From the sequence record LC788708.1: 64,000 nucleotides of DNA; one strand, given 5' to 3'. The translations under genes were made by a program, and so were the position numbers. The notes beneath the pieces were generated by a model. It was not told where the DNA came from. It searched no databases and saw only the letters and a list, made by a program, of their open reading frames with translations. The DNA comes from Escherichia coli phage AZ21. This document shows, piece by piece, positions 9,553-49,777 of this stretch; the stretch's first letter is position 1, and every line of letters starts with the position of its first letter.

Positions 9553-10191
9553 ATGACTACTCGTATCTCTAAAACTCGCGCTCTGGCAACTATCAAATCT
9601 CTGGAAGCTAAAATCCGTAAAGCTACTGAACAACAGCTTCTGATCGCTGTTGGTGAAGGTAAGGATAAAAACCAGGTTGTAGTTGGCGCTGCAATCGAAG
9701 TAGATGCCCTGTCTACTCGTATTAAAACTGATTTCCAATCTCTGCTGGATATGATGTCTCAGCGTGATCGTATTAAATCTGCTCTGATTAAGAGCAATGC
9801 AGAAACAATCGTTGAGATTGGTTCTCGTAAGATGACTGTTGCGGAAGCAATTGAAGCTAAGCGTTCTATGGAGCTTAAAGCTCAGCTGCTGGCTAACATG
9901 CGTAAGCAGTTCCATGCCGCTACGATTAAGTTTAATACGCAGAAAGCACAGTTTGATGCTAAATATGAGCGTTTGCAGGATAGCATGGCTACCCGCGATA
10001 AGAAAACTTCCGAAGATGAAGTTAAAATGCAGCTCAATCTGCTGGAACTCAAGAATACTCCATTCTTGATTGATCCGCTGGAACTGGAGAAGCTGATTAA
10101 GCAGCATGACGAGGAATACCAGGACTTTGCAACAAATGTTGACTTTGTTCTATCCGAGTCTAACGCCTCTACCTTCATTGAAGTAGAGTAA
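9553..10191 (+). CDS. coiled-coil early protein (212 aa)
   Basis: AAGGAA RBS. Strongly host-optimal-looking codons. Three overlapping track ORFs are treated as shadows. Confidence 0.7.
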   Translation: MTTRISKTRALATIKSLEAKIRKATEQQLLIAVGEGKDKNQVVVGAAIEVDALSTRIKTDFQSLLDMMSQRDRIKSALIKSNAETIVEIGSRKMTVAEAIEAKRSMELKAQLLANMRKQFHAATIKFNTQKAQFDAKYERLQDSMATRDKKTSEDEVKMQLNLLELKNTPFLIDPLELEKLIKQHDEEYQDFATNVDFVLSESNASTFIEVE

Positions 10192-10202
10192 TAATTTAAA
10201 AG

Positions 10203-10553
10203 CTAGTAAATCGGTAGACGAAAGCCCAAGCATCTTACCTCGCAGCAGCGGTTGAAATACGAGGTTAAATAAGACCGCTGACCATACTATAAAGTATAAT
10301 CTATTGGAGATTATGTTTATTACACCAGCCTCTTAAGCTGACACGTAAGAACAAAGCGTCGTTGATATTACCGACACAACTTCAAAGATCAACATTTAAG
10401 TATGAAAGCTGAAAAGTTTAAAGAACTCAAACTTCTAAACTTCTAAAGCTAAAAGATGCAAAGTATTCGTTGATGATTCAAACCCTAGATCAAAGGTACA
10501 TGGCTCATAAGATATGGCCTGTGGCGCCTCTAGGCTGTTTATCGGTTTACTAG
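10203..10553 (+). ncRNA. candidate structured non-coding region
   Basis: ORF-free. A 17-bp closing helix pairs 10203-10219 with 10537-10553 (G-U pairs allowed). An internal interleaved CCTCG/GCGGT/CGAGG/ACCGC pattern suggests a pseudoknot. Confidence 0.3.
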
Positions 10554-32094: not shown

Positions 32095-32279
32095 TGGAAA
32101 CTCTTTTTCTTTTAATGCTCGTAGGTTCTCTGTTACTAATACTAGCACTTCTACTAATCTGCAATATTCTTAACAACAAGAATCTAGAGCTAAAGTGTGA
32201 GAACCAAATCCTTAATCGTGAACTTAAACAATATAACATCGCAGCCCATAAACTGTTAGACAAACTGGAGAATAAATAA
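32094..32279 (+). CDS. single-TM coiled-coil protein (61 aa)
   Basis: TAATG coupling. Confidence 0.55.
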   Translation: METLFLLMLVGSLLLILALLLICNILNNKNLELKCENQILNRELKQYNIAAHKLLDKLENK

Positions 32280-32884
32280 TGACTTTTAATACACAACAAT
32301 CTATTCAAGTAGTGCCAGATCATGAACTGAACACATGGGATTATAGCTTTAAAGATTTAACTGCTACTATACAATTTAAATCTATGAAGCTAACATTTGC
32401 ACACACTGATCTTAGAGCCTGTAAAGATCTTGAGGATAAGCTCGAAGATGCTCGTAAGATTTTTGGCAAGGCTCGCATCCCGGCTGATAATCTAATTAAC
32501 GCATTAATCGATGTAGGATACAAACTCGTGAAGACTGAGGTGAACCGCCCTAGTACTCCAGTGACTGTTAGAGATCCGTGGCAGCCAGGGACAATCTCAA
32601 TGCTAAATAAATCATCGGATATACACAATGTTCCATGCGGTGGTGTGGTAAGTAGTACGCAGTCATACAAGTTTGGTGAAGATTACGGCCCTTCTGTGCA
32701 GTTGAAACATACTCAAGAAGCTTTTGAATCTGATATGCGAAGCGTAGCACCTGTGGATGCTGGAGTTTCTAGGAGTTCTGTTTGTACTATTCATTTTAAT
32801 AATCCTAGTAAACATGGAAGTTTAGAGGATGCTATCCTTGAAGCGTTGGGAGCTGCTATTAATGAAGATAAAAGAGGTAGTTAA
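32279..32884 (+). CDS. hypothetical protein (201 aa)
   Basis: TAATG coupling. Confidence 0.65.
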   Translation: MTFNTQQSIQVVPDHELNTWDYSFKDLTATIQFKSMKLTFAHTDLRACKDLEDKLEDARKIFGKARIPADNLINALIDVGYKLVKTEVNRPSTPVTVRDPWQPGTISMLNKSSDIHNVPCGGVVSSTQSYKFGEDYGPSVQLKHTQEAFESDMRSVAPVDAGVSRSSVCTIHFNNPSKHGSLEDAILEALGAAINEDKRGS

Positions 32885-33774
32885 TGGGATTTTATAGTAA
32901 TAGAAAACCAAAAGGTGTAACTGGTAAATTCGCAGTTGAAGAAAGACCTTTTCCACCGGTCGATGTAGAGAAACTACGTGAACTTCTAGAAATGCTAGAA
33001 GGTTGCCATGAACGTTGTTATTCTGAACTCTCTTTAAATGAGAAACGTGTTGTTGAGATGTTCTGTATTCGTTCAGCTAGAACAGCTAAAGGTACTTCTC
33101 CAAAAGATGAAGTAAAAGAGTACAGAGTTCTAGTGATGCATGCTTGGGCACAACGTTTTGCAGTTCATTCGCTTCAGGAATGGTTTAATCTTCCAGCCTA
33201 TAAAGATTTTCATGTTTACGAAGATGAGGTTATGAATTATAATGAGTTGTATGGTTTGTCCTTCAAAAAGACAGGCTCACCGATGCATGATGCACTCAAT
33301 TCATTCCCTGATCATTACCTTCCAGTTCGTGAATATAGAGATCGTGAAGGAAATAAACCCTGCTTCACTATTTGGAATAAGTCTAAGACGATATCTGATC
33401 TAGATAATTATTGGTTTCGCACAAAAGAAGGATTCCTAGGAACAGAACCTTTACCTAAGGATCTCAAACCTATCCTTCCGCCTGCGAAACCTAAACATGA
33501 AGTAACGATTGCTATTAATAGAATAATTCTAGGAGCAGATGATCTTACTAAACAAATCGCCGCAGTTATCGCAGTTCTGTTTGACGGTACAAATTCTTCT
33601 GCACGTTATGAGAAGCTAACGGATAACAAATTGCAGATACCTAACGAGTTGTATGAGAGTTCGTGCAAGATCTATGATAACTTTAGTAAAGTAGATTACC
33701 CCGTGAGATCCATTAAAGAACTCATGGAGTATGCGGAGATGGGGATGAAAGGAAATCTCATGTTCGATGAATAA
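32884..33774 (+). CDS. hypothetical protein (296 aa), last gene of the early arm
   Basis: TAATG coupling. Long clean ORF. Confidence 0.7.
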   Translation: MGFYSNRKPKGVTGKFAVEERPFPPVDVEKLRELLEMLEGCHERCYSELSLNEKRVVEMFCIRSARTAKGTSPKDEVKEYRVLVMHAWAQRFAVHSLQEWFNLPAYKDFHVYEDEVMNYNELYGLSFKKTGSPMHDALNSFPDHYLPVREYRDREGNKPCFTIWNKSKTISDLDNYWFRTKEGFLGTEPLPKDLKPILPPAKPKHEVTIAINRIILGADDLTKQIAAVIAVLFDGTNSSARYEKLTDNKLQIPNELYESSCKIYDNFSKVDYPVRSIKELMEYAEMGMKGNLMFDE

Positions 33775-33781
33775 ACTCTAC

Positions 33782-33810
33782 TTGACGTTATGATTTCTGC
33801 ATGTTATAAT
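33782..33810 (+). promoter_or_regulatory. near-consensus sigma70 promoter reading into an ORF-free region
   Basis: TTGACG, 17 nt, TATAAT. Confidence 0.65.
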
Positions 33811-33817
33811 AACTCTA

Positions 33818-33990
33818 TGAAATAACATAGAATAAAGAGATCCACCCGGATACGGATGGTGGATGGGAAACTTCTATTTCCCCCGTAGCTTGTCGGAGGG
33901 CTAGGGAAATCTTAAGAAGTTTTGTACCATCTCACGCAATTCGTATCCCAGGGGTGGAGCATCTCTTCCAATCTTTGGGGATCTTATACT
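33818..33990 (+). ncRNA. candidate promoter-driven structured transcript
   Basis: No ORF. Local hairpins CTATG-aaataa-CATAG, TCCACC..GGTGGA and GGGAAA..TTTCCC. Long-range pairing CCACCCGGATACG / CGTATCCCAGGGGTGG. Confidence 0.3.
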
Positions 33991-34138
33991 TAAATTAAAG
34001 GTAAAACTTTTGGTCACATAATTTACATTCAAGATGATACACTGGTTGCCGCCATTCTTCCTAGGATGGCACAACACTTTCTTCTAGACTCCTAAGTTTC
34101 TAGGAATACTAACTCTAGAGTTTACACTAAACTTTGAA

Positions 34139-34876
34139 TCGGATTCGCACATGCTCTAGGGCAGTTTTTCATCTACTATAAATATCCTAGGCCGGTTTTC
34201 CTATACAGGGCGGTTATGGGGAGGGCGGTTATTTCTAGACAATAAAATTTACTCTTGTCAGTCCAGAAATTACTGTCGGATTTGCACATTGTGTTTCTAG
34301 AAATTTATGGTCGGATTTGCACAATTGCCTAAGTTTTTAGGAACATATAATCTCCTGAAAATGGCAGCATTATTTCGGGCCGAAGGCCCATGATTGCCTG
34401 AGTTTTTTTAGAGACACAGAAATTTTCACTTGTCAAGCTATTTTGCCCCATTTTGCTAATAAAATTTTACTTTATCTCCCCTAATCTCAAATTAACCCAA
34501 ATCTTCTCAACTCTTCTCCAAAATCCCCGCAAATCAGGTGCTCCGCACCAAACATGCGCCCCTCCCGTAGTTCCCCCAAGTTTCTCTCGATCTCTCAACT
34601 TCTCCCCAAACTCATACAATCACACACCCTCCAATCGAAGTCACAAAAATCTTGTCGGATTCGCACAAATAAACCCATGTCGGATTTGCACATATTCTAG
34701 TTAATTCCACAGGATTGATGCGCAGCATCGGATTGCTGGAGTTTTTGGGAGAATTCATTGTCGGATTCGCACACTATAAAAATTTTTCGGGTCGGATTTG
34801 CACACTACCAAAAATTGTCGGATTCGCACATACACGCCCACGCGTAATCCATGGGGGCAAATGTCGGATTTGCACA
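34139..34876 (+). repeat. array of nine direct 14-bp iterons GTCGGATT(T/C)GCACA
   Basis: Copies start at 34139 (lacks the first G), 34275, 34310, 34654, 34679, 34760, 34791, 34817 and 34863. All share one orientation. Confidence 0.9.
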
Positions 34877-34881
34877 AAAGC

Positions 34882-34899
34882 GCAGGGCAATTGCCCTGC
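34882..34899. repeat. perfect 18-bp palindrome GCAGGGCAATTGCCCTGC
   Basis: Read directly from the sequence. Confidence 0.9.
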
Positions 34900-34904
34900 T
34901 TGCC

Positions 34905-35100
34905 TGAATGCGAATGATAATGAGAATCATTTGCATTTAAAAAGCGGAATGAGAATGATAATAATTCGCATTTAAGAATGGAAGTGAGAATTATTCAGGA
35001 AGTGAAACGATTCTCATTTAAAAAGTGAAACGATTCTCATTTAGAAAGTGAAACGCGAATGATAATGATTCGTATTTAAGAATGGAAGTGAGAAACACTA
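34905..35100. promoter_or_regulatory. cluster of Fur-box-like imperfect palindromes and short tandem repeats
   Basis: 19-mers at 34916-34934 and 34951-34969 match GATAATGATAATCATTATC at 16/19 and 15/19 by hand. A 23-bp unit AGTGAAACGATTCTCATTTAAAA is tandem at 35001 and 35024. A ~40-bp direct repeat lies at 34947-34990 and 35054-35094. Confidence 0.6.
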
Positions 35101-35281
35101 TTATTTAAGTTATCCACAGACTTATCAACAGCACGATTTGACTTGACAGAATCCTAGCCATTTTGAGGCGTTATCAACAGACTTATCAACAGCTTATCCT
35201 ACTGTATAAATATACAGTATTCCTATGCAGTGAATAATTCTAATATACAGCTAAAACGCTCTCAAACGCATTCTAACGCGT
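35086..35281. repeat. left arm of a ~200-bp imperfect inverted repeat carrying DnaA-type boxes
   Basis: TTATCCACA at 35110. TTATCAACA at 35122, 35171 and 35183. Aligns with the reverse complement of 39128-39330. Confidence 0.85.
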
Positions 35282-35413
35282 TTAATTTTGGTGGGGATAC
35301 TAAAACAAGGGCAAAATTGGAGGAGGCTTGAAAATTAGTTAGCTCGCTAATGATCACACACGGCGACACGTAACACCCTAACCATTAGCAGGCTAACCAT
35401 CGCGGGCGTGGTC

Positions 35414-35434
35414 AAATGAGAATGATTCTCATTT
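35414..35434. repeat. perfect 21-bp palindrome AAATGAGAAT-G-ATTCTCATTT (Fur-box-like core)
   Basis: Read directly. The TGAGAATGATTCTCA core differs from TGATAATNATTATCA at one symmetric position pair. Confidence 0.85.
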
Positions 35435-35475
35435 GTGGATTGGGGGCGCTTCCTGATAGTTGCGCCCCGTGATTA

Positions 35476-35589
35476 TTATAGTAGGGGGCAACCGTTACGC
35501 TTTGCCCACTCCCGCCACTCATCTTGGTGCCTAGACTTGCGACGGCGTACTAAAAACCGCTTGTACCAGTGATTAAACCATCGTTTCAT
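35476..35589 (-). CDS. possible 37-aa basic Trp-rich peptide, last gene of the leftward cassette
   Basis: ATGA overlap with the upstream gene's stop. MKRWFNHWYKRFLVRRRK... Below the track cutoff. Confidence 0.35.
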   Translation of the reverse strand: MKRWFNHWYKRFLVRRRKSRHQDEWREWAKRNGCPLL

Positions 35590-35789
35590 AAATCCTCCTC
35601 CGGTAGTCGATGCGTGATCTTTTCCTCCTCCCCATAGGAATCCACCAAATACTGATAATAACCATCGTGATCATAAATCACTTTATCATATTCCCCACGC
35701 TCGACCGCTTGCCGATTTTCCAACGTATCAGGCACAAAGAAAGTATCAACGGTAACAGTAGTTTTAGTTACAACAATTTTATCACTCAT
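35586..35789 (-). CDS. pre-early-region hypothetical protein (67 aa)
   Basis: Co-directional cassette. AGGGG RBS region. Confidence 0.55.
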   Translation of the reverse strand: MSDKIVVTKTTVTVDTFFVPDTLENRQAVERGEYDKVIYDHDGYYQYLVDSYGEEEKITHRLPEEDL

Positions 35790-35809
35790 AATGCCATCGC
35801 CCCTAGAAT

Positions 35810-35828
35810 GAGAATGATTATCAATATC
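35810..35828. promoter_or_regulatory. Fur-box-like 19-mer GAGAATGATTATCAATATC
   Basis: 16/19 to the Fur consensus by hand. Lies in the intergenic gap of the leftward cassette. Confidence 0.45.
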
Positions 35829-35915
35829 ATTGTGAAGCCATTACCAAATCGTAAACGCTGGGAATGTTTCCCAGCGGTATTATTAGACTTATGGCTTTGT
35901 GTTTTTCGCCACCAG

Positions 35916-36116
35916 CTATTCACGGTAGACGCTCCATCCGTCTAGCTTCCATTCTTCCCCCTTGCGAATATTGAAAAACCAATCATTAAAATTGTAACCA
36001 TCTTCTGACATGATCACGCCGTTTTCTTTCATGTACAAAAATTCATCACTAGTAAAATATTGATTACTAACTTTAAAACCTTGTTTCATTTTTTCTAGTG
36101 CTTCATCTTTAGTCAT
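35916..36116 (-). CDS. small protein (66 aa) with DUF2829/Tad2-like N-terminal pattern (tentative)
   Basis: MTKDEALEKMKQGFKV... and a Trp-rich C-terminal part. ATGA coupling to the upstream gene. Confidence 0.55.
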   Translation of the reverse strand: MTKDEALEKMKQGFKVSNQYFTSDEFLYMKENGVIMSEDGYNFNDWFFNIRKGEEWKLDGWSVYRE

Positions 36117-36457
36117 TGCGCCACCTTTCGAAACGCTGTTTCAATACTATCCGCAGTGGATTGAATATATGCGCCTTTGAGTATCAGCCGCTCGGTGCAT
36201 ATCTTGCGAAAAATATTAATAAAATCGTCCTCATTTTCTGCGATTAATGCCTCACCCATAACCTGAACGTCGCAAGATGCAAAGGTCAAAAATTGAAACG
36301 CTAGTTCACGGGCAACGACCGCATTGATTTTATAATGCGCCTTGCCTTCATAGATATTAATAACGCCCTTATAAGCTGGCGAAAGCTGATTTAAGTAGTT
36401 TGCTAATAATGCCGGACGGCAATTAGCAACAAAACGATTGCCCTCATAAATAACCAT
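36113..36457 (-). CDS. hypothetical protein (114 aa)
   Basis: Co-directional cassette. Confidence 0.6.
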   Translation of the reverse strand: MVIYEGNRFVANCRPALLANYLNQLSPAYKGVINIYEGKAHYKINAVVARELAFQFLTFASCDVQVMGEALIAENEDDFINIFRKICTERLILKGAYIQSTADSIETAFRKVAQ

Positions 36458-36584
36458 TTGATAGTCTCCCGATTAGATAGCCAGATAATAACATAAAGAT
36501 CCCCAATAAAAGAGGATCATTCTTAAATAAGGTGGCGGTAAAACCGCCAACCATTGCAAGGAGAATAACAATAATGCTTTTCAT
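36444..36584 (-). CDS. possible 46-aa 2-TM peptide
   Basis: ATGA overlap with the upstream stop. MKSIIVILLAMVGGFTATLF...LLLGIFMLLSGYLIG. Below the track cutoff. Confidence 0.45.
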   Translation of the reverse strand: MKSIIVILLAMVGGFTATLFKNDPLLLGIFMLLSGYLIGRLSNGYL

Positions 36585-40818: not shown

Positions 40819-41226
40819 ATGACTAACGCAAAAACCGCAAAATTCGCATGGAATGAAGAAAACACTCAGAAAGCTGTTACCATGTACCAGCAGTTAATCA
40901 ACGAAAACGGTTTAGATTTTGCAAATAGCGACGGCCTGAAAGAGATTGCAAAAGCAGTAGGCGCGGCCTCCCCCGTATCCGTTCGGTCAAAATTGACCAG
41001 TGCAAAAGCCTATCAAAAAAGCGATAAGCCGCGTAAAGTTGGCGGCGGTAGCTCTGTGCGTAAAGCTCACTATGTGCGAGTAATTGCAAAACACGCTATC
41101 GATTCCGGTATTATCAAAGACGCCGATGATCTGGCAAGCCTTGAAAGTGCTAAACTGGAAACGCTGGACGCGGTGGCGCAACTGTTAGGCGTTGCCGATG
41201 AAGTAAAACAAGCCGTAGGTGAATAA
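40819..41226 (+). CDS. A2: pre-early protein A2
   Basis: 135 aa. Size, position just upstream of A1 and recalled sequence character match T5 A2. Confidence 0.75.
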   Translation: MTNAKTAKFAWNEENTQKAVTMYQQLINENGLDFANSDGLKEIAKAVGAASPVSVRSKLTSAKAYQKSDKPRKVGGGSSVRKAHYVRVIAKHAIDSGIIKDADDLASLESAKLETLDAVAQLLGVADEVKQAVGE

Positions 41227-44118: not shown

Positions 44119-44853
44119 ATGAATCAAGTTAAAACGAATATTTCCCGTAACTTCCCGCATATTTCCCGCGTCATGATCTGGGATCTTGATGGCACTATCG
44201 TTAATTCATTCCATCGTGTAGCGCCTTGCTTTGATAGTGAGGGTAATCTAGATTTAAATAAGTATAAGAATGAGGCTTGCAAACATGATTTAATAATGCA
44301 GGATACTTTATTGCCTTTGGTGGAATATATGCGCCAATGCATGAATGACGCAAATACTTTAAACATTATTTGTACCGCTCGATTAATGAGCAAATCGGAT
44401 TATTATTATTTGCGCAAACAAGGCTTGCGAGGGCGTGGGGATAGCAATATCCGCGTGTTTTCCCGCGACACGCTGCATAAATATTTTGAAGCTGATAAGG
44501 TTAGCGAGATATACCACAGTAAAGACGCAGTTTATAAATCGTATTACTTTGAATTATTTAAACAGCTATATCCGAACGCTGATTTCACAATGATTGATGA
44601 TCATAAAGGTGTATTATCAGCGGCGGCGTCATACGGATTTAAAACGCTAGACGCGCAAGCCGTTAACGATATTCTATCAATCGGCGTGGCATTGATAGGC
44701 GGAACCTTTATTGATGAATCTCTCGATGATGATAATGATTATCAGTTCCTAGCCGATCGATTGAAATTATGTTGGGAAAGTATGACCGAAGAAGAACGCG
44801 CAGAATATAGTTGCAGCCCGCAACAATATATTGAGAAATTAAAAGTTGCGTAA
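44119..44853 (+). CDS. dmp: 5'-deoxyribonucleotidase (HAD family)
   Basis: 244 aa from ATG 44119. The track start at 44077 lies in hairpin 44052-44078. HAD motif I is IWDLDGTIV. Confidence 0.8.
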   Translation: MNQVKTNISRNFPHISRVMIWDLDGTIVNSFHRVAPCFDSEGNLDLNKYKNEACKHDLIMQDTLLPLVEYMRQCMNDANTLNIICTARLMSKSDYYYLRKQGLRGRGDSNIRVFSRDTLHKYFEADKVSEIYHSKDAVYKSYYFELFKQLYPNADFTMIDDHKGVLSAAASYGFKTLDAQAVNDILSIGVALIGGTFIDESLDDDNDYQFLADRLKLCWESMTEEERAEYSCSPQQYIEKLKVA

Positions 44854-47978: not shown

Positions 47979-48461
47979 ATGGCAAATGATGTATTAGTTC
48001 CCGATCTCATGTCTCCCGAAGGCATGGATGTTATTGAAGCCTATTTACAGTGCGGTAGTGATGTTCCTGCCGCCGCTCGTAGTCTTGGAATGTCCGAGAT
48101 TGCATTTCGTGATATAATGAATCGTGGGGAAGTTAAAAACTATCTCAACGATATCTTTATGGAAAGCGGCTTCCGTAATCGTGACCGCTTATTCGGAGTT
48201 CTTGATGAAGTTATCAAACGCAAGTTGGAAGAACTCGAAGAAACTGGCATGGGTTCTGACCAGGATATCATGGATATTCTCTGGAAGGCGCACAAGATGA
48301 AGATGGAAGAAATGAAAATGATGGTAGAACTGGAGAAAGTGAAGGCAGCAGCCCGTACTCCGGCTAACCAGACTAATATTCAGAATAATATTATTGCTGG
48401 AAGTGGTGACGAAAACTATATGAATCTTATTACCGCTCTAGCAGGAGGAGGTAAGAGATAA
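47979..48461 (+). CDS. terminase small subunit
   Basis: 160 aa, immediately upstream of and overlapping the large subunit. N-terminal HTH-like region. Confidence 0.7.
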
Positions 48462-49777
48462 TGAAAGTCTCTAGAGATTATATTAACACCACAGATGTTA
48501 TTGACTTTGGTATTGACAAACGATTTTTTCGTCTGCCAGTCTCTAGCATTCTAGCTCAAGAGGGGATTACACCTAACGCCCCTCAGGTTGCAATTATTAA
48601 TGCGTTAGAAGATCCTAGACACCGTTTCGTAACTGCGTGTGTATCACGTCGTGTAGGTAAGTCATTCATCGCATATACACTTGGGTTCCTAAAACTTCTG
48701 GAACCCAATGTGAAGGTGCTGGTAGTTGCACCTAACTACTCACTGGCTAACATAGGTTGGTCACAGATTCGTGGTCTTATTAAGAAGTATGGATTACAGA
48801 CTGAACGTGAGAACGCAAAAGATAAAGAGATTGAACTAGCGAATGGTTCTCTCTTTAAGCTGGCTTCTGCGGCGCAGGCTGACTCCGCGGTTGGTCGTTC
48901 ATATGACTTCATCATTTTTGACGAAGCAGCGATTTCCGACGTTGGTGGTGCAGCTTTCGATATTCAGTTACGTCCTACTCTAGATAAGCCAAACTCTAAA
49001 GCTCTGTTTATTTCCACACCTCGTGGTGGTAACTGGTTTAAAGAGTTCTATGAGAAAGGATTTAACGAAACTCTACCTAACTGGGTATCTATTCATGGTA
49101 CATATCGTGATAACCCACGTGCTGATCTGAACGATATCGAAGAAGCGCGTCGTACTGTTAGTAAAAACTACTTCCGTCAAGAATATGAGGCTGACTTCTC
49201 TGTATTCGAAGGTCAGATCTTTGACACCTTCAATGCTATCGAACATGTTAAAGACCTCAAAGGTATGCGCCACTTCTTTAAAGATGATGAGGCTTTCGAA
49301 ACATTACTTGGTATCGACGTTGGTTATCGTGACCCTACAGCAGTTCTTACTATCAAGTATCACTATGATACTGATGTTTATTACGTACTGGAAGAATATC
49401 AGCAAGCTGAAAAGACTACAGCTCAACACGCTGCTTATATCCAACACTGCATAGATCGTTATAATGTTGATCGTATATTTGTAGACTCCGCCGCTGCTCA
49501 GTTCCGTCAGGACTTAGCATATGAACATGAAATCGCTTCTGCTCCTGCTAAGAAATCTGTCCTAGATGGTCTGGCATGCCTACAAGCACTGTTCCAGCAA
49601 GGTAAGATCATCGTAGATGCTTCATGTACCTCATTGATCCACGCCCTAGCGAACTACAGGTGGGACTTCCAGGAGGGCGAAGAGAAATTATCACGTGAAA
49701 AACCACGTCATGATGCGAACTCTCACCTTTGTGACGCACTGCGTTATGGAATTTACTCAATTTCCCGTGGGAAATAA
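48461..49777 (+). CDS. terminase large subunit
   Basis: 438 aa. Walker A-like RRVGKS, Walker B IIFDEAA, and C-terminal nuclease Asp residues (FVDSAA, HLCDALRY). Confidence 0.88.
   Translation: MKVSRDYINTTDVIDFGIDKRFFRLPVSSILAQEGITPNAPQVAIINALEDPRHRFVTACVSRRVGKSFIAYTLGFLKLLEPNVKVLVVAPNYSLANIGWSQIRGLIKKYGLQTERENAKDKEIELANGSLFKLASAAQADSAVGRSYDFIIFDEAAISDVGGAAFDIQLRPTLDKPNSKALFISTPRGGNWFKEFYEKGFNETLPNWVSIHGTYRDNPRADLNDIEEARRTVSKNYFRQEYEADFSVFEGQIFDTFNAIEHVKDLKGMRHFFKDDEAFETLLGIDVGYRDPTAVLTIKYHYDTDVYYVLEEYQQAEKTTAQHAAYIQHCIDRYNVDRIFVDSAAAQFRQDLAYEHEIASAPAKKSVLDGLACLQALFQQGKIIVDASCTSLIHALANYRWDFQEGEEKLSREKPRHDANSHLCDALRYGIYSISRGK

What the first reader, a model, noticed from the sequence alone, without database searches (positions are those of the whole stretch)
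34139..34876. Nine same-orientation 14-bp iterons GTCGGATT(T/C)GCACA in an ORF-free region at the inner edge of the pre-early block
- **Copies:** they start at 34139, 34275, 34310, 34654, 34679, 34760, 34791, 34817 and 34863, all on one strand.
- **Pairing:** the last six form three C-variant/T-variant pairs with gaps of 11, 17 and 32 nt.
- **No gene explains them:** the two track ORFs here are low-complexity artefacts.
- **What such arrays usually mean:** repeated binding of one protein, such as an initiator, a partition or packaging factor, or a roadblock.
- **Context:** this is where published T5 work places a non-coding, repeat-rich injection stop signal that pauses DNA entry after about 8 percent of the genome. 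I cannot tell from the sequence whether this exact motif is the one already described.
Basis: partly seen in the sequence, partly recalled or inferred. Interest (0 to 1): 0.7.

Follow-up and report, generated by a model that had tools for sequence, protein, structure and literature searches.

The report
Known T5 "DRD" repeat array
The nine repeats are real, but they are the "direct repeat D" family already annotated in phage T5's injection-stop region; their function is still untested, and comparison across the phage family points to the phage protein A2 as the most likely binder.

Summary
There are eight exact GTCGGATTYGCACA copies plus one copy that starts with A (34138), all on the + strand, against 0 expected by chance.

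The window is the T5-like coliphage AZ23. The nine copies match T5's annotated "direct repeat D" copies 1-9 one for one, with identical spacing, so the feature is already known. Its function has never been tested.

- **Position:** the array lies just beyond the pre-early terminator and major nick. It straddles the right end of the terminal repeat (34410|34411), with six copies inside and three outside.
- **Published stop-signal candidates:** these are the neighbouring DnaA-box and palindrome blocks, not this array.
- **C/T pairing:** it is not conserved in relatives.
- **Conservation:** the core and the single orientation persist in phages of Escherichia, Salmonella, Klebsiella, Pectobacterium and Vibrio. 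Proteus and Aeromonas relatives carry different repeats at the same map position.
- **Link to A2:** repeat identity tracks residues in the predicted recognition helices of A2, a Myb/GcrA-like protein essential for second-step DNA transfer. It tracks neither host phylogeny nor the small terminase helix-turn-helix.

Best guess, at about 0.35: the repeats are A2 loading sites that restart DNA entry. The main rivals are a packaging signal and the stop signal itself.

The parts
34138..34151 (+). DRD copy 9 (ATCGGATTCGCACA, first base A). It lies outside the terminal repeat and is the least conserved copy.
34275..34288 (+). DRD copy 8 (T variant), outside the terminal repeat
34310..34323 (+). DRD copy 7 (T variant), outside the terminal repeat, 87 bp from its end
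34410..34411 (.). Right end of the terminal repeat (...GAGTTTTTTTA | GAGACACAG...). The repeat extends from 34411 to about 44975.
   Evidence: The T5 annotation ends the left terminal repeat at 10139. The same site is annotated in Sepoy (PhageTerm) and SIY1lw. Genome right ends in six relatives stop 243-245 bp past DRD6. The left end was located.
34654..34667 (+). DRD copy 6 (C variant), inside the terminal repeat, 243 bp from its end
34679..34692 (+). DRD copy 5 (T variant). In some lineages this copy sits 10 bp further along, with its neighbours unmoved.
34760..34773 (+). DRD copy 4 (C variant)
34791..34804 (+). DRD copy 3 (T variant)
34817..34830 (+). DRD copy 2 (C variant)
34863..34876 (+). 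DRD copy 1 (T variant), 3 nt from the nick-site homologue
34880..34899 (-). Homologue of the T5 major nick 1 site (GCGCAGGG, 34880-34887), overlapping palindrome J. Palindrome J is the terminator-like hairpin that closes the pre-early transcription unit (34882-34899).
   Evidence: The same repeat-then-GCGCAGG juxtaposition is present in Vibrio phage Chester.
32614..32627 (+). Degenerate homologue of T5 'DRD copy 10' (ATCGGATATACACA), inside the 201-aa ORF 32279-32884. Whether it is functional is unknown.
40819..41226 (+). Gene A2, the candidate reader of the repeats (an inference, not shown). It is a 135-aa pre-early DNA-binding protein with a predicted Myb/GcrA-like N-terminal domain.

Best explanation
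**What is shown.** The nine 14-mers are the 'direct repeat D' (DRD) family of T5's Repeat Region 3. They form a co-oriented, DNA-level array of recognition sites. The array lies between the pre-early terminator and major nick on one side and the first early genes on the other, and it straddles the right end of the terminal repeat.

**What is inferred.**
- The protein that reads the repeats is phage-encoded. The most likely candidate is the pre-early protein A2, which is essential for second-step transfer.
- The array is not the stop itself. It is the first DNA to emerge past the stop point.
- A2 is made from the first-step DNA during the pause. It would load on successive repeats as they enter, hold or ratchet the DNA inwards, and so restart transfer, possibly together with A1.
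- The sites act as independent beads on a string, not as a phased wrapped complex.
For: **Identity.**
- The motif, copy number and spacing (46, 26, 31, 81, 25, 344, 35, 137) are the same as T5's annotated DRD copies 1-9.
- The literature describes the repeats but assigns them no function.

**DNA-level selection.**
- The core is nearly invariant while the flanks diverge.
- The repeat is read in two frames.
- There were no opposite-strand copies in 39 related loci.

**Position.**
- DRD1 lies 3 nt from the nick-site homologue at the first-step/second-step border.
- All copies point the same way relative to the direction of DNA entry.

- The core TT(T/C)GCAC(A) persists in phages of Escherichia, Salmonella, Klebsiella, Pectobacterium and Vibrio.
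- Proteus phage 1 and Aeromonas phage AhSzw-1 carry different repeats at the same map position.
- The motif therefore follows phage lineage, not host phylogeny.

**A2 specifically.**
- It is essential for second-step transfer and is a DNA-binding protein.
- Lineages with the DRD core keep RSKL in predicted helix 3 and (H/S)Y(V/I)R in the next helix. This holds for T5, My1, DU_PP_V, L374, Chester and D260.
- The two lineages with other repeats have RTKL with HVVF, and RQKL with KLVL. Yet Proteus A2 is as similar overall to T5 A2 (39%) as Chester A2 is (40%).

**The small terminase fits less well.** Its helix-turn-helix region diverges between T5 and My1 (9 of 24 residues identical by my count on the alignment) although their repeats are identical.

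**Independent sites.**
- The spacings share no helical phase.
- An HNH-gene insertion of about 520 bp within the inner cluster is tolerated.
Against: - No binding data exist. The co-variation rests on about six lineages that are not phylogenetically independent.
- A restart role does not explain why the array stays within 25-250 bp of the terminal-repeat end from coliphages to Vibrio phage Chester. A packaging role would explain this.
- A handle of 9 sites over 740 bp cannot by itself pull in the remaining 110 kb or so.
- T5 also carries copies inside coding DNA, far from the entry border: copy 10 in ORF019 and copies 11-12 in D13.
- The 7.9% shear point is an old estimate. The inner six copies could already be inside the cell at the pause.
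Confidence: 0.35

Rival explanations
1. Packaging or terminus signal. The repeats would bind the terminase, or an accessory factor, at the concatemer junction. This would position or license the cut that creates the right end of the terminal repeat, from which packaging should start. The analogues are lambda cosB R-sites and the 4+3 hexamers that flank the P1 pac cut.
For: - The exact repeat end falls in the large gap of the array in T5-like phages, 87 bp from DRD7 and 243 bp from DRD6.
- The same holds in My1, with 6 copies inside and 3-4 outside, and in the 123.5-kb genome of L110/L125, with 5 inside and 6 outside.
- In Vibrio phage Chester the end lies 38 bp from the last copy.
- The T5 packaging signals are undefined according to 2026 reviews.
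- The small terminase homologue is T5 'SciB', named for single-chain interruptions. The major nick site abuts DRD1 here and in Chester.
Against: - The small terminase helix-turn-helix is poorly conserved between lineages that share identical repeats.
- The left terminus of the repeat has no such array.
- A separate conserved element (GGGGCAAAA..TTGACA..GAAAA) sits 20-40 nt from the genome end and could be the real cut determinant.
- Nick sites 2, 3 and 4 have no adjacent repeat.
- In Chester all copies lie outside the packaged terminal copy.
Confidence: 0.2
2. The array is itself the injection stop signal, or part of it. A host or virion-borne protein would bind the repeats as they enter and block further transfer until A1/A2 act.
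For: - The array lies in the conserved non-coding region assigned to the stop signal, within the error of the 7.9% estimate.
- The stop needs no new phage protein and does not occur in vitro, which implies a cell factor.
- The neighbouring elements look like host-factor sites: DnaA boxes and Fur-box-like palindromes.
Against: - Davison places the stop signal on the other side of the shear point and names other elements as candidates.
- Motif distribution follows phage lineage, not host. It is kept in Vibrio phages and replaced in a Proteus phage.
- The T/C variable position falls on position 4 of a DnaA-box alignment, so DnaA is an unlikely reader. The motif matches only 8/9 or 7/9 of the box (my alignment of the motif to the consensus quoted).
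- No arrays were found in enterobacterial chromosomes.
Confidence: 0.15
3. Transcription control at the border between the converging pre-early and early units. A phage protein, possibly A2, bound to the repeats would block read-through or regulate the conserved promoter at 33782-33810 that fires into the array.
For: - The array sits between convergent units and is bounded by a terminator-like hairpin.
- A near-consensus sigma-70 promoter pointing into the array is conserved in T5, Sepoy and Kenya-K18.
Against: - The nearest repeat is about 330 bp downstream of that promoter, not over it.
- There is no Rfam hit and no conserved ORF for a product.
- Nine sites spread over 740 bp is excessive for an operator.
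Confidence: 0.1
4. Replication origin iterons bound by a phage initiator, with the adjacent DnaA boxes helping, as in plasmid origins.
For: - Same-orientation repeats lie next to DnaA boxes and A+T-rich palindromes.
- T5 encodes a protein annotated as 'replication origin binding protein'.
- From memory, not checked here: the C variant contains ATTCGCAC, which matches 7 of 8 bases of the herpes UL9 box core.
Against: - The spacings share no helical phase.
- There is no adjacent initiator gene.
- The T5 protein matches the herpes family only over helicase motifs (profile positions 51-197 of 820), not the DNA-binding domain.
- Davison's review of the EM replication studies places origins near the genome centre.
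Confidence: 0.05

Closest known systems
T5 'direct repeat D' (DRD) copies 1-9 in Repeat Region 3, the injection-stop-signal region. Sources: GenBank AY587007 annotation, and Davison 2020, bioRxiv 10.1101/866236, which credits earlier sequencing papers.
   Same: Same 14-mer, same nine positions, identical spacing, same orientation and same flanking elements: nick 1, palindrome J, DRC/DRE palindromes, DnaA boxes and the terminal-repeat end.
   Different: The only difference is which copies carry T or C at position 9. The window is a different isolate (AZ23), about 87% identical to T5 across the region.
P1 pac site and lambda cosB: repeated terminase recognition elements flanking or adjoining the cut
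   Same: Two clusters of one short repeat bracket a precise terminase cut.
   Different: - The distances are larger here (87 and 243 bp).
- All copies are co-oriented.
- The small terminase helix-turn-helix is not co-conserved with the motif.
- No binding has been shown.
Plasmid and phage origin iterons with adjacent DnaA boxes
   Same: Multiple direct repeats lie next to DnaA boxes in an ORF-free region.
   Different: There is no helical phasing, no adjacent initiator gene and no origin mapped here.
Polar protein-DNA barriers read by Myb-like domains, such as Reb1-Ter
   Same: The sites are asymmetric and co-oriented. The candidate reader A2 has a Myb-like fold, with Reb1 and Rap1 among its structural neighbours.

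Membership tests
   The same pattern hits the nine annotated T5 DRD sites.
T5 DRD repeats (Repeat Region 3) | Nine co-oriented copies with the T5 spacing pattern | tested here: met
   Start-to-start spacings of 46, 26, 31, 81, 25, 344, 35 and 137 in both genomes.
T5 DRD repeats (Repeat Region 3) | Map position between nick 1/palindrome J and the first early gene, spanning the end of the left terminal repeat | tested here: met
Injection stop signal (iss) proper | Lies on the first-step side of the roughly 7.9% shear point | tested here: inconclusive
   The array starts about 50 bp beyond the calculated shear point of 9618, and three copies lie beyond the terminal repeat. The estimate is old and imprecise.
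Injection stop signal (iss) proper | Acts in cis to halt DNA entry | not testable with these tools
   This needs blender-interruption assays on array mutants.
DnaA boxes | Match to TT(A/T)TNCACA | tested here: not met
   ATTTGCACA matches 8 of 9 positions and ATTCGCACA 7 of 9. The freely varying T/C falls on box position 4. This is my own alignment of the motif to the consensus quoted. No repeat is found by the exact box search.
Origin iterons | Adjacent initiator gene, regular helical phasing, and an origin mapped at the site | tested here: not met
   There is no initiator gene nearby. The spacings do not share a phase. The T5 origin-binding protein is similar to the herpes family only over helicase motifs. 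Origins are reported near the genome centre.
Terminase recognition arrays (cosB- or pac-type) | Close to the terminase cut and present at every concatemer junction | tested here: met
   The cut is at 34410|34411, 87 and 243 bp from the nearest copies.
Terminase recognition arrays (cosB- or pac-type) | Read by the small terminase subunit | tested here: inconclusive
   There is only indirect evidence. The small terminase helix-turn-helix diverges between lineages with identical repeats. Binding is not testable here.

The most novel reading that the evidence does not exclude
The DRD array is the specific loading site of the essential pre-early protein A2, a Myb/GcrA-like DNA reader. A2 binding to these co-oriented sites as they emerge past the pause would be the molecular event that restarts T5's second-step DNA transfer. 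The array and A2 would co-evolve as a cassette across the Demerecviridae.
Probability: 0.3. Interest if true: 0.7.

Novelty: already known. Interest (0 to 1): 0.35.

Why it matters
How T5 stops after about 8% of its DNA has entered, and then restarts, has been open since the 1960s. A 2026 preprint still calls the role of A2 'as yet unknown'.

The repeats themselves are not news. What this analysis adds is a specific, cheap experiment: test whether A2 binds DRD oligonucleotides. The comparative pattern behind it is that repeat identity tracks the A2 recognition helices across the family.

The analysis also records that the array brackets the exact terminal-repeat end. This is relevant to T5 packaging signals, which are equally undefined.

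Tried and rejected
1. **DnaA-box reading of the repeat.** It matches only 7-8 of 9 positions, and the variable base falls on box position 4 (consensus, exact search).
2. **Herpes UL9-type origin-binding lead.** The T5 'obp' homologue matches Pfam Herpes_ori_bp only over helicase motifs.
3. **General link to the T5 nicks.** Nick sites share CCCTGCGC, but only nick 1 abuts a repeat. Nick 4 is 365 bp from copies 11-12.
Its helix-turn-helix is not co-conserved with the motif.
5. **Host chromosomal arrays.** The genome-contig scan gave 109 hits. Those inspected were mostly an unrelated palindrome, TCGGATTTGCAATCCGA, mainly in Bacteroidales. None of the titles listed were Enterobacterales.
6. **RNA families.** There is no Rfam hit in 32500-36500.
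7. **Coding explanation.** It is rejected.
8. **Copies 11-12 in D13.** They encode VQIL/QVQIR and are absent from My1 and DU_PP_V, so their significance is unresolved.
9. **Distant A1-bearing metagenome contigs.** These have 37-49% A1 identity, lack both the repeat and a detectable A2, and were too divergent to be informative.
10. **Literature and structures.** Davison 2015 could not be read. No solved structure resembles A2 or the small terminase by sequence.
11. **One A2 lineage.** The P0066 contig did not reach the non-coding region.

Full report
**Observation**

The window region 33800-35400 is 100% identical to Escherichia coli phage AZ23 (LC788707.1), a Tequintavirus. It is 82-93% identical to the other best-matching T5-like phages listed, out of 457 matching records.

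GTCGGATTYGCACA occurs exactly eight times. A ninth copy at 34138 has A as its first base. All are on the + strand, and none were seen in shuffled sequence.

The region from 33775 to 35585 lies between converging genes. The two mechanical ORFs across the array are broken in relatives, and the repeat is read in two frames within one of them. The repeats are therefore a DNA-level feature.

**Identity**

GenBank AY587007 (T5) annotates 'direct repeat D copy 1-9' at 9672-10409. Start-to-start spacings are identical in the two genomes: 46, 26, 31, 81, 25, 344, 35 and 137.

[quoted passage not shown] He assigns the repeats no function. [quoted passage not shown]

The T5 annotation also lists:
- copy 10, inside ORF019; the window homologue at 32614 is degenerate;
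- copies 11-12, inside D13/exo2.

With 2 or fewer mismatches, T5 positions 8.5-109 kb contain only these twelve sites, all in one orientation.

**Anatomy**

In window orientation the order is:
1. early genes, ending at 33774;
2. a conserved near-consensus sigma-70 promoter at 33782-33810, pointing right;
3. a conserved 80-nt block at 34032-34110;
4. DRD copies 9, 8 and 7;
5. the hairpin at 34377-34389;
6. the terminal-repeat end at 34410|34411;
7. a C/T-rich tract;
8. DRD copies 6 to 1;
9. the nick-site homologue GCGCAGGG and palindrome J (terminator);
10. Fur-box-like palindromes, which are T5's DRC/DRE repeats;
11. DnaA boxes;
12. the pre-early genes.

The repeat end is the same nucleotide in the T5 annotation, in Sepoy (PhageTerm) and in SIY1lw. 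Six genomes deposited with both repeats end 243-245 bp past DRD6. So six copies are inside the repeat and three are in unique DNA.

The published stop-signal candidates, IRD'-spacer-IRC' and DRE, are the neighbouring blocks on the pre-early side of the calculated shear point.

**Conservation**

- Across 14 close relatives the repeat columns are more conserved than the rest of the array span: 94% against 83% identity, and 77% against 57% invariant.
- A logo shows an A-tract 6-8 bp upstream of the core.
- In 39 loci no copy is on the other strand.
- Copy 5 toggles by exactly 10 bp in some lineages.
- HNH-gene insertions of about 520 bp inside the inner cluster are tolerated.
- The spacings share no helical phase.

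The same 14-mer core, in the same orientation and map position, is found in:
- Pectobacterium phages My1 and DU_PP_V;
- a 123.5-kb relative (L110/L125);
- a Klebsiella Sugarlandvirus;
- a metagenomic lineage (L374).

This holds although the flanks have diverged to 53-65% identity.

Vibrio phage Chester, with A1 only 34% identical, has eight T(C/A)G(G/A)ATTTGCACC copies. Vibrio phage D260 has six TTCGCACAT copies. Proteus phage 1 and Aeromonas phage AhSzw-1 have different repeat arrays at the equivalent position.

**Who reads it**

The distribution follows phage lineage, not host phylogeny. This favours a phage-encoded reader.

A2 (window 40819-41226) is essential for second-step transfer and is a DNA-binding protein of unknown target. 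Its family is confined to T5-like phages. The AlphaFold2 model (pLDDT 84.6) has an N-terminal three-helix domain. Its best structural neighbours are the GcrA DNA-binding domain, MogR, Rap1, Reb1-Ter, Myb repeats and Tc3. These folds read asymmetric sites.

| Lineages | Repeat at the site | Predicted helix 3 | Next helix |
|---|---|---|---|
| T5, My1, DU_PP_V, L374, Chester, D260 | DRD core | RSKL | (H/S)Y(V/I)R |
| Proteus phage 1 | ACTATTCTATTA | RTKL | HVVF |
| Aeromonas phage AhSzw-1 | TCTAGCCGTCTAAACATC | RQKL | KLVL |

Proteus A2 is as similar overall to T5 A2 as Chester A2 is.

The small terminase (window 47979-48461, T5 'SciB') diverges in its helix-turn-helix between T5 and My1, although their repeats are identical.

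All of this is correlative. It rests on few lineages, and they are not independent.

**Mechanism and rivals**

I favour A2 loading on the repeats as the DNA emerges past the pause, which would restart entry (confidence about 0.35).

The strongest rival is a packaging or terminus role. The array brackets or abuts the exact terminal-repeat end from coliphages to Chester, and T5's packaging signals are undefined. Against it:
- the small terminase helix-turn-helix diverges;
- the left terminus has no such array;
- a separate conserved element lies next to the genome end.

The stop-signal, transcription-control and origin readings are less supported. Their evidence is listed in the rivals section.

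**Verdict**

The feature is real, far from chance, and already described and annotated. Their function remains open, and there is now a concrete A2-binding hypothesis to test.

Noticed in passing
window 34916-34934, 35810-35828, 44725-44749: Three loci match the 19-bp Fur-box consensus GATAATGATAATCATTATC with 2-3 mismatches, against 0.05 expected in the window. All three lie inside the terminal repeat (first-step DNA). One is in the palindrome block next to DRD1 and one is in the dmp gene near the left terminus. Davison 2020 does not mention them (no search for 'Fur' was run in that paper). T5's receptor FhuA is iron-regulated (from my own knowledge).
   Followed up: partly
window 33782-33810 and 34032-34110: A near-consensus sigma-70 promoter (TTGACG-17-TATAAT with an upstream TG) sits just after the last early gene and points into the repeat array. 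It is conserved in T5, Sepoy and Kenya-K18. It is followed by an almost invariant 80-nt block. No product, Rfam hit or T5 annotation accounts for either.
   Followed up: partly
window 34377-34440, and right ends of L076, L026, L125: The terminal-repeat end (34410|34411) is flanked outside by a conserved hairpin (GGGCCGAAGGCCC). Inside it lies a conserved element (GGGGCAAAA..TTGACA..GAAAA), which sits 20-40 nt from the physical genome end in T5, My1 and a 123.5-kb relative. This is a candidate terminase cut determinant.
   Followed up: partly
L134 6654-6682 (AZ23, outside the window); T5 79019-79048: A tandem pair of near-perfect DRD copies (T5 'copies 11-12') lies inside the D13/exo2 gene, in the same genome orientation as the main array. 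It encodes VQIL-QVQIR. It is present in all close relatives, absent from My1 and DU_PP_V, and 365 bp from major nick 4.
   Followed up: partly
window 34863-34887; L370 10492-10525: The juxtaposition of the last repeat with the nick-site sequence is conserved between this phage and Vibrio phage Chester. The window reads repeat-AAA-GCGCAGGG; Chester reads repeat-CAG-GCGCAGGAGGG. In Chester the terminal-repeat end is about 27 bp further on.
   Followed up: no
window 47979-48461: The homologue of T5 'SciB' (named for single-chain interruptions) is classed by PHROGs as the small terminase subunit. It sits directly upstream of the large subunit (48461-49777). This hints that T5's site-specific nicks are made by the packaging machinery.
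   Followed up: no
L370 10514-10673 (Vibrio phage Chester): About 14-20 tandem 8-bp units (TCTAGACT / TCTATCCA) begin at the terminal-repeat end. They replace the C/T-rich tract and inner repeat cluster seen in T5-like phages.
   Followed up: no
window 34470-34650; 34208-34232; 34080-34330: Three further features lie within the array span. A roughly 180-bp tract almost lacks G on the + strand. A conserved tandem GGGCGGTTAT occurs twice. CTAG-containing motifs (TTCTAGA, TTTCTAGG) are unusually dense.
   Followed up: no
L162 and L168; L141, L144 and others: HNH endonuclease genes are inserted between DRD4 and DRD5 in two relatives. In several lineages DRD5 is displaced by exactly 10 bp (spacings 35+71 instead of 25+81), which keeps its helical face.
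   Followed up: partly
L260-L339 (genome-contig hits): A palindromic repeat, TCGGATTTGCAATCCGA, recurs in many Bacteroidales and Prevotella genomes. It shares 11 bases with the phage repeat but appears unrelated.
   Followed up: no
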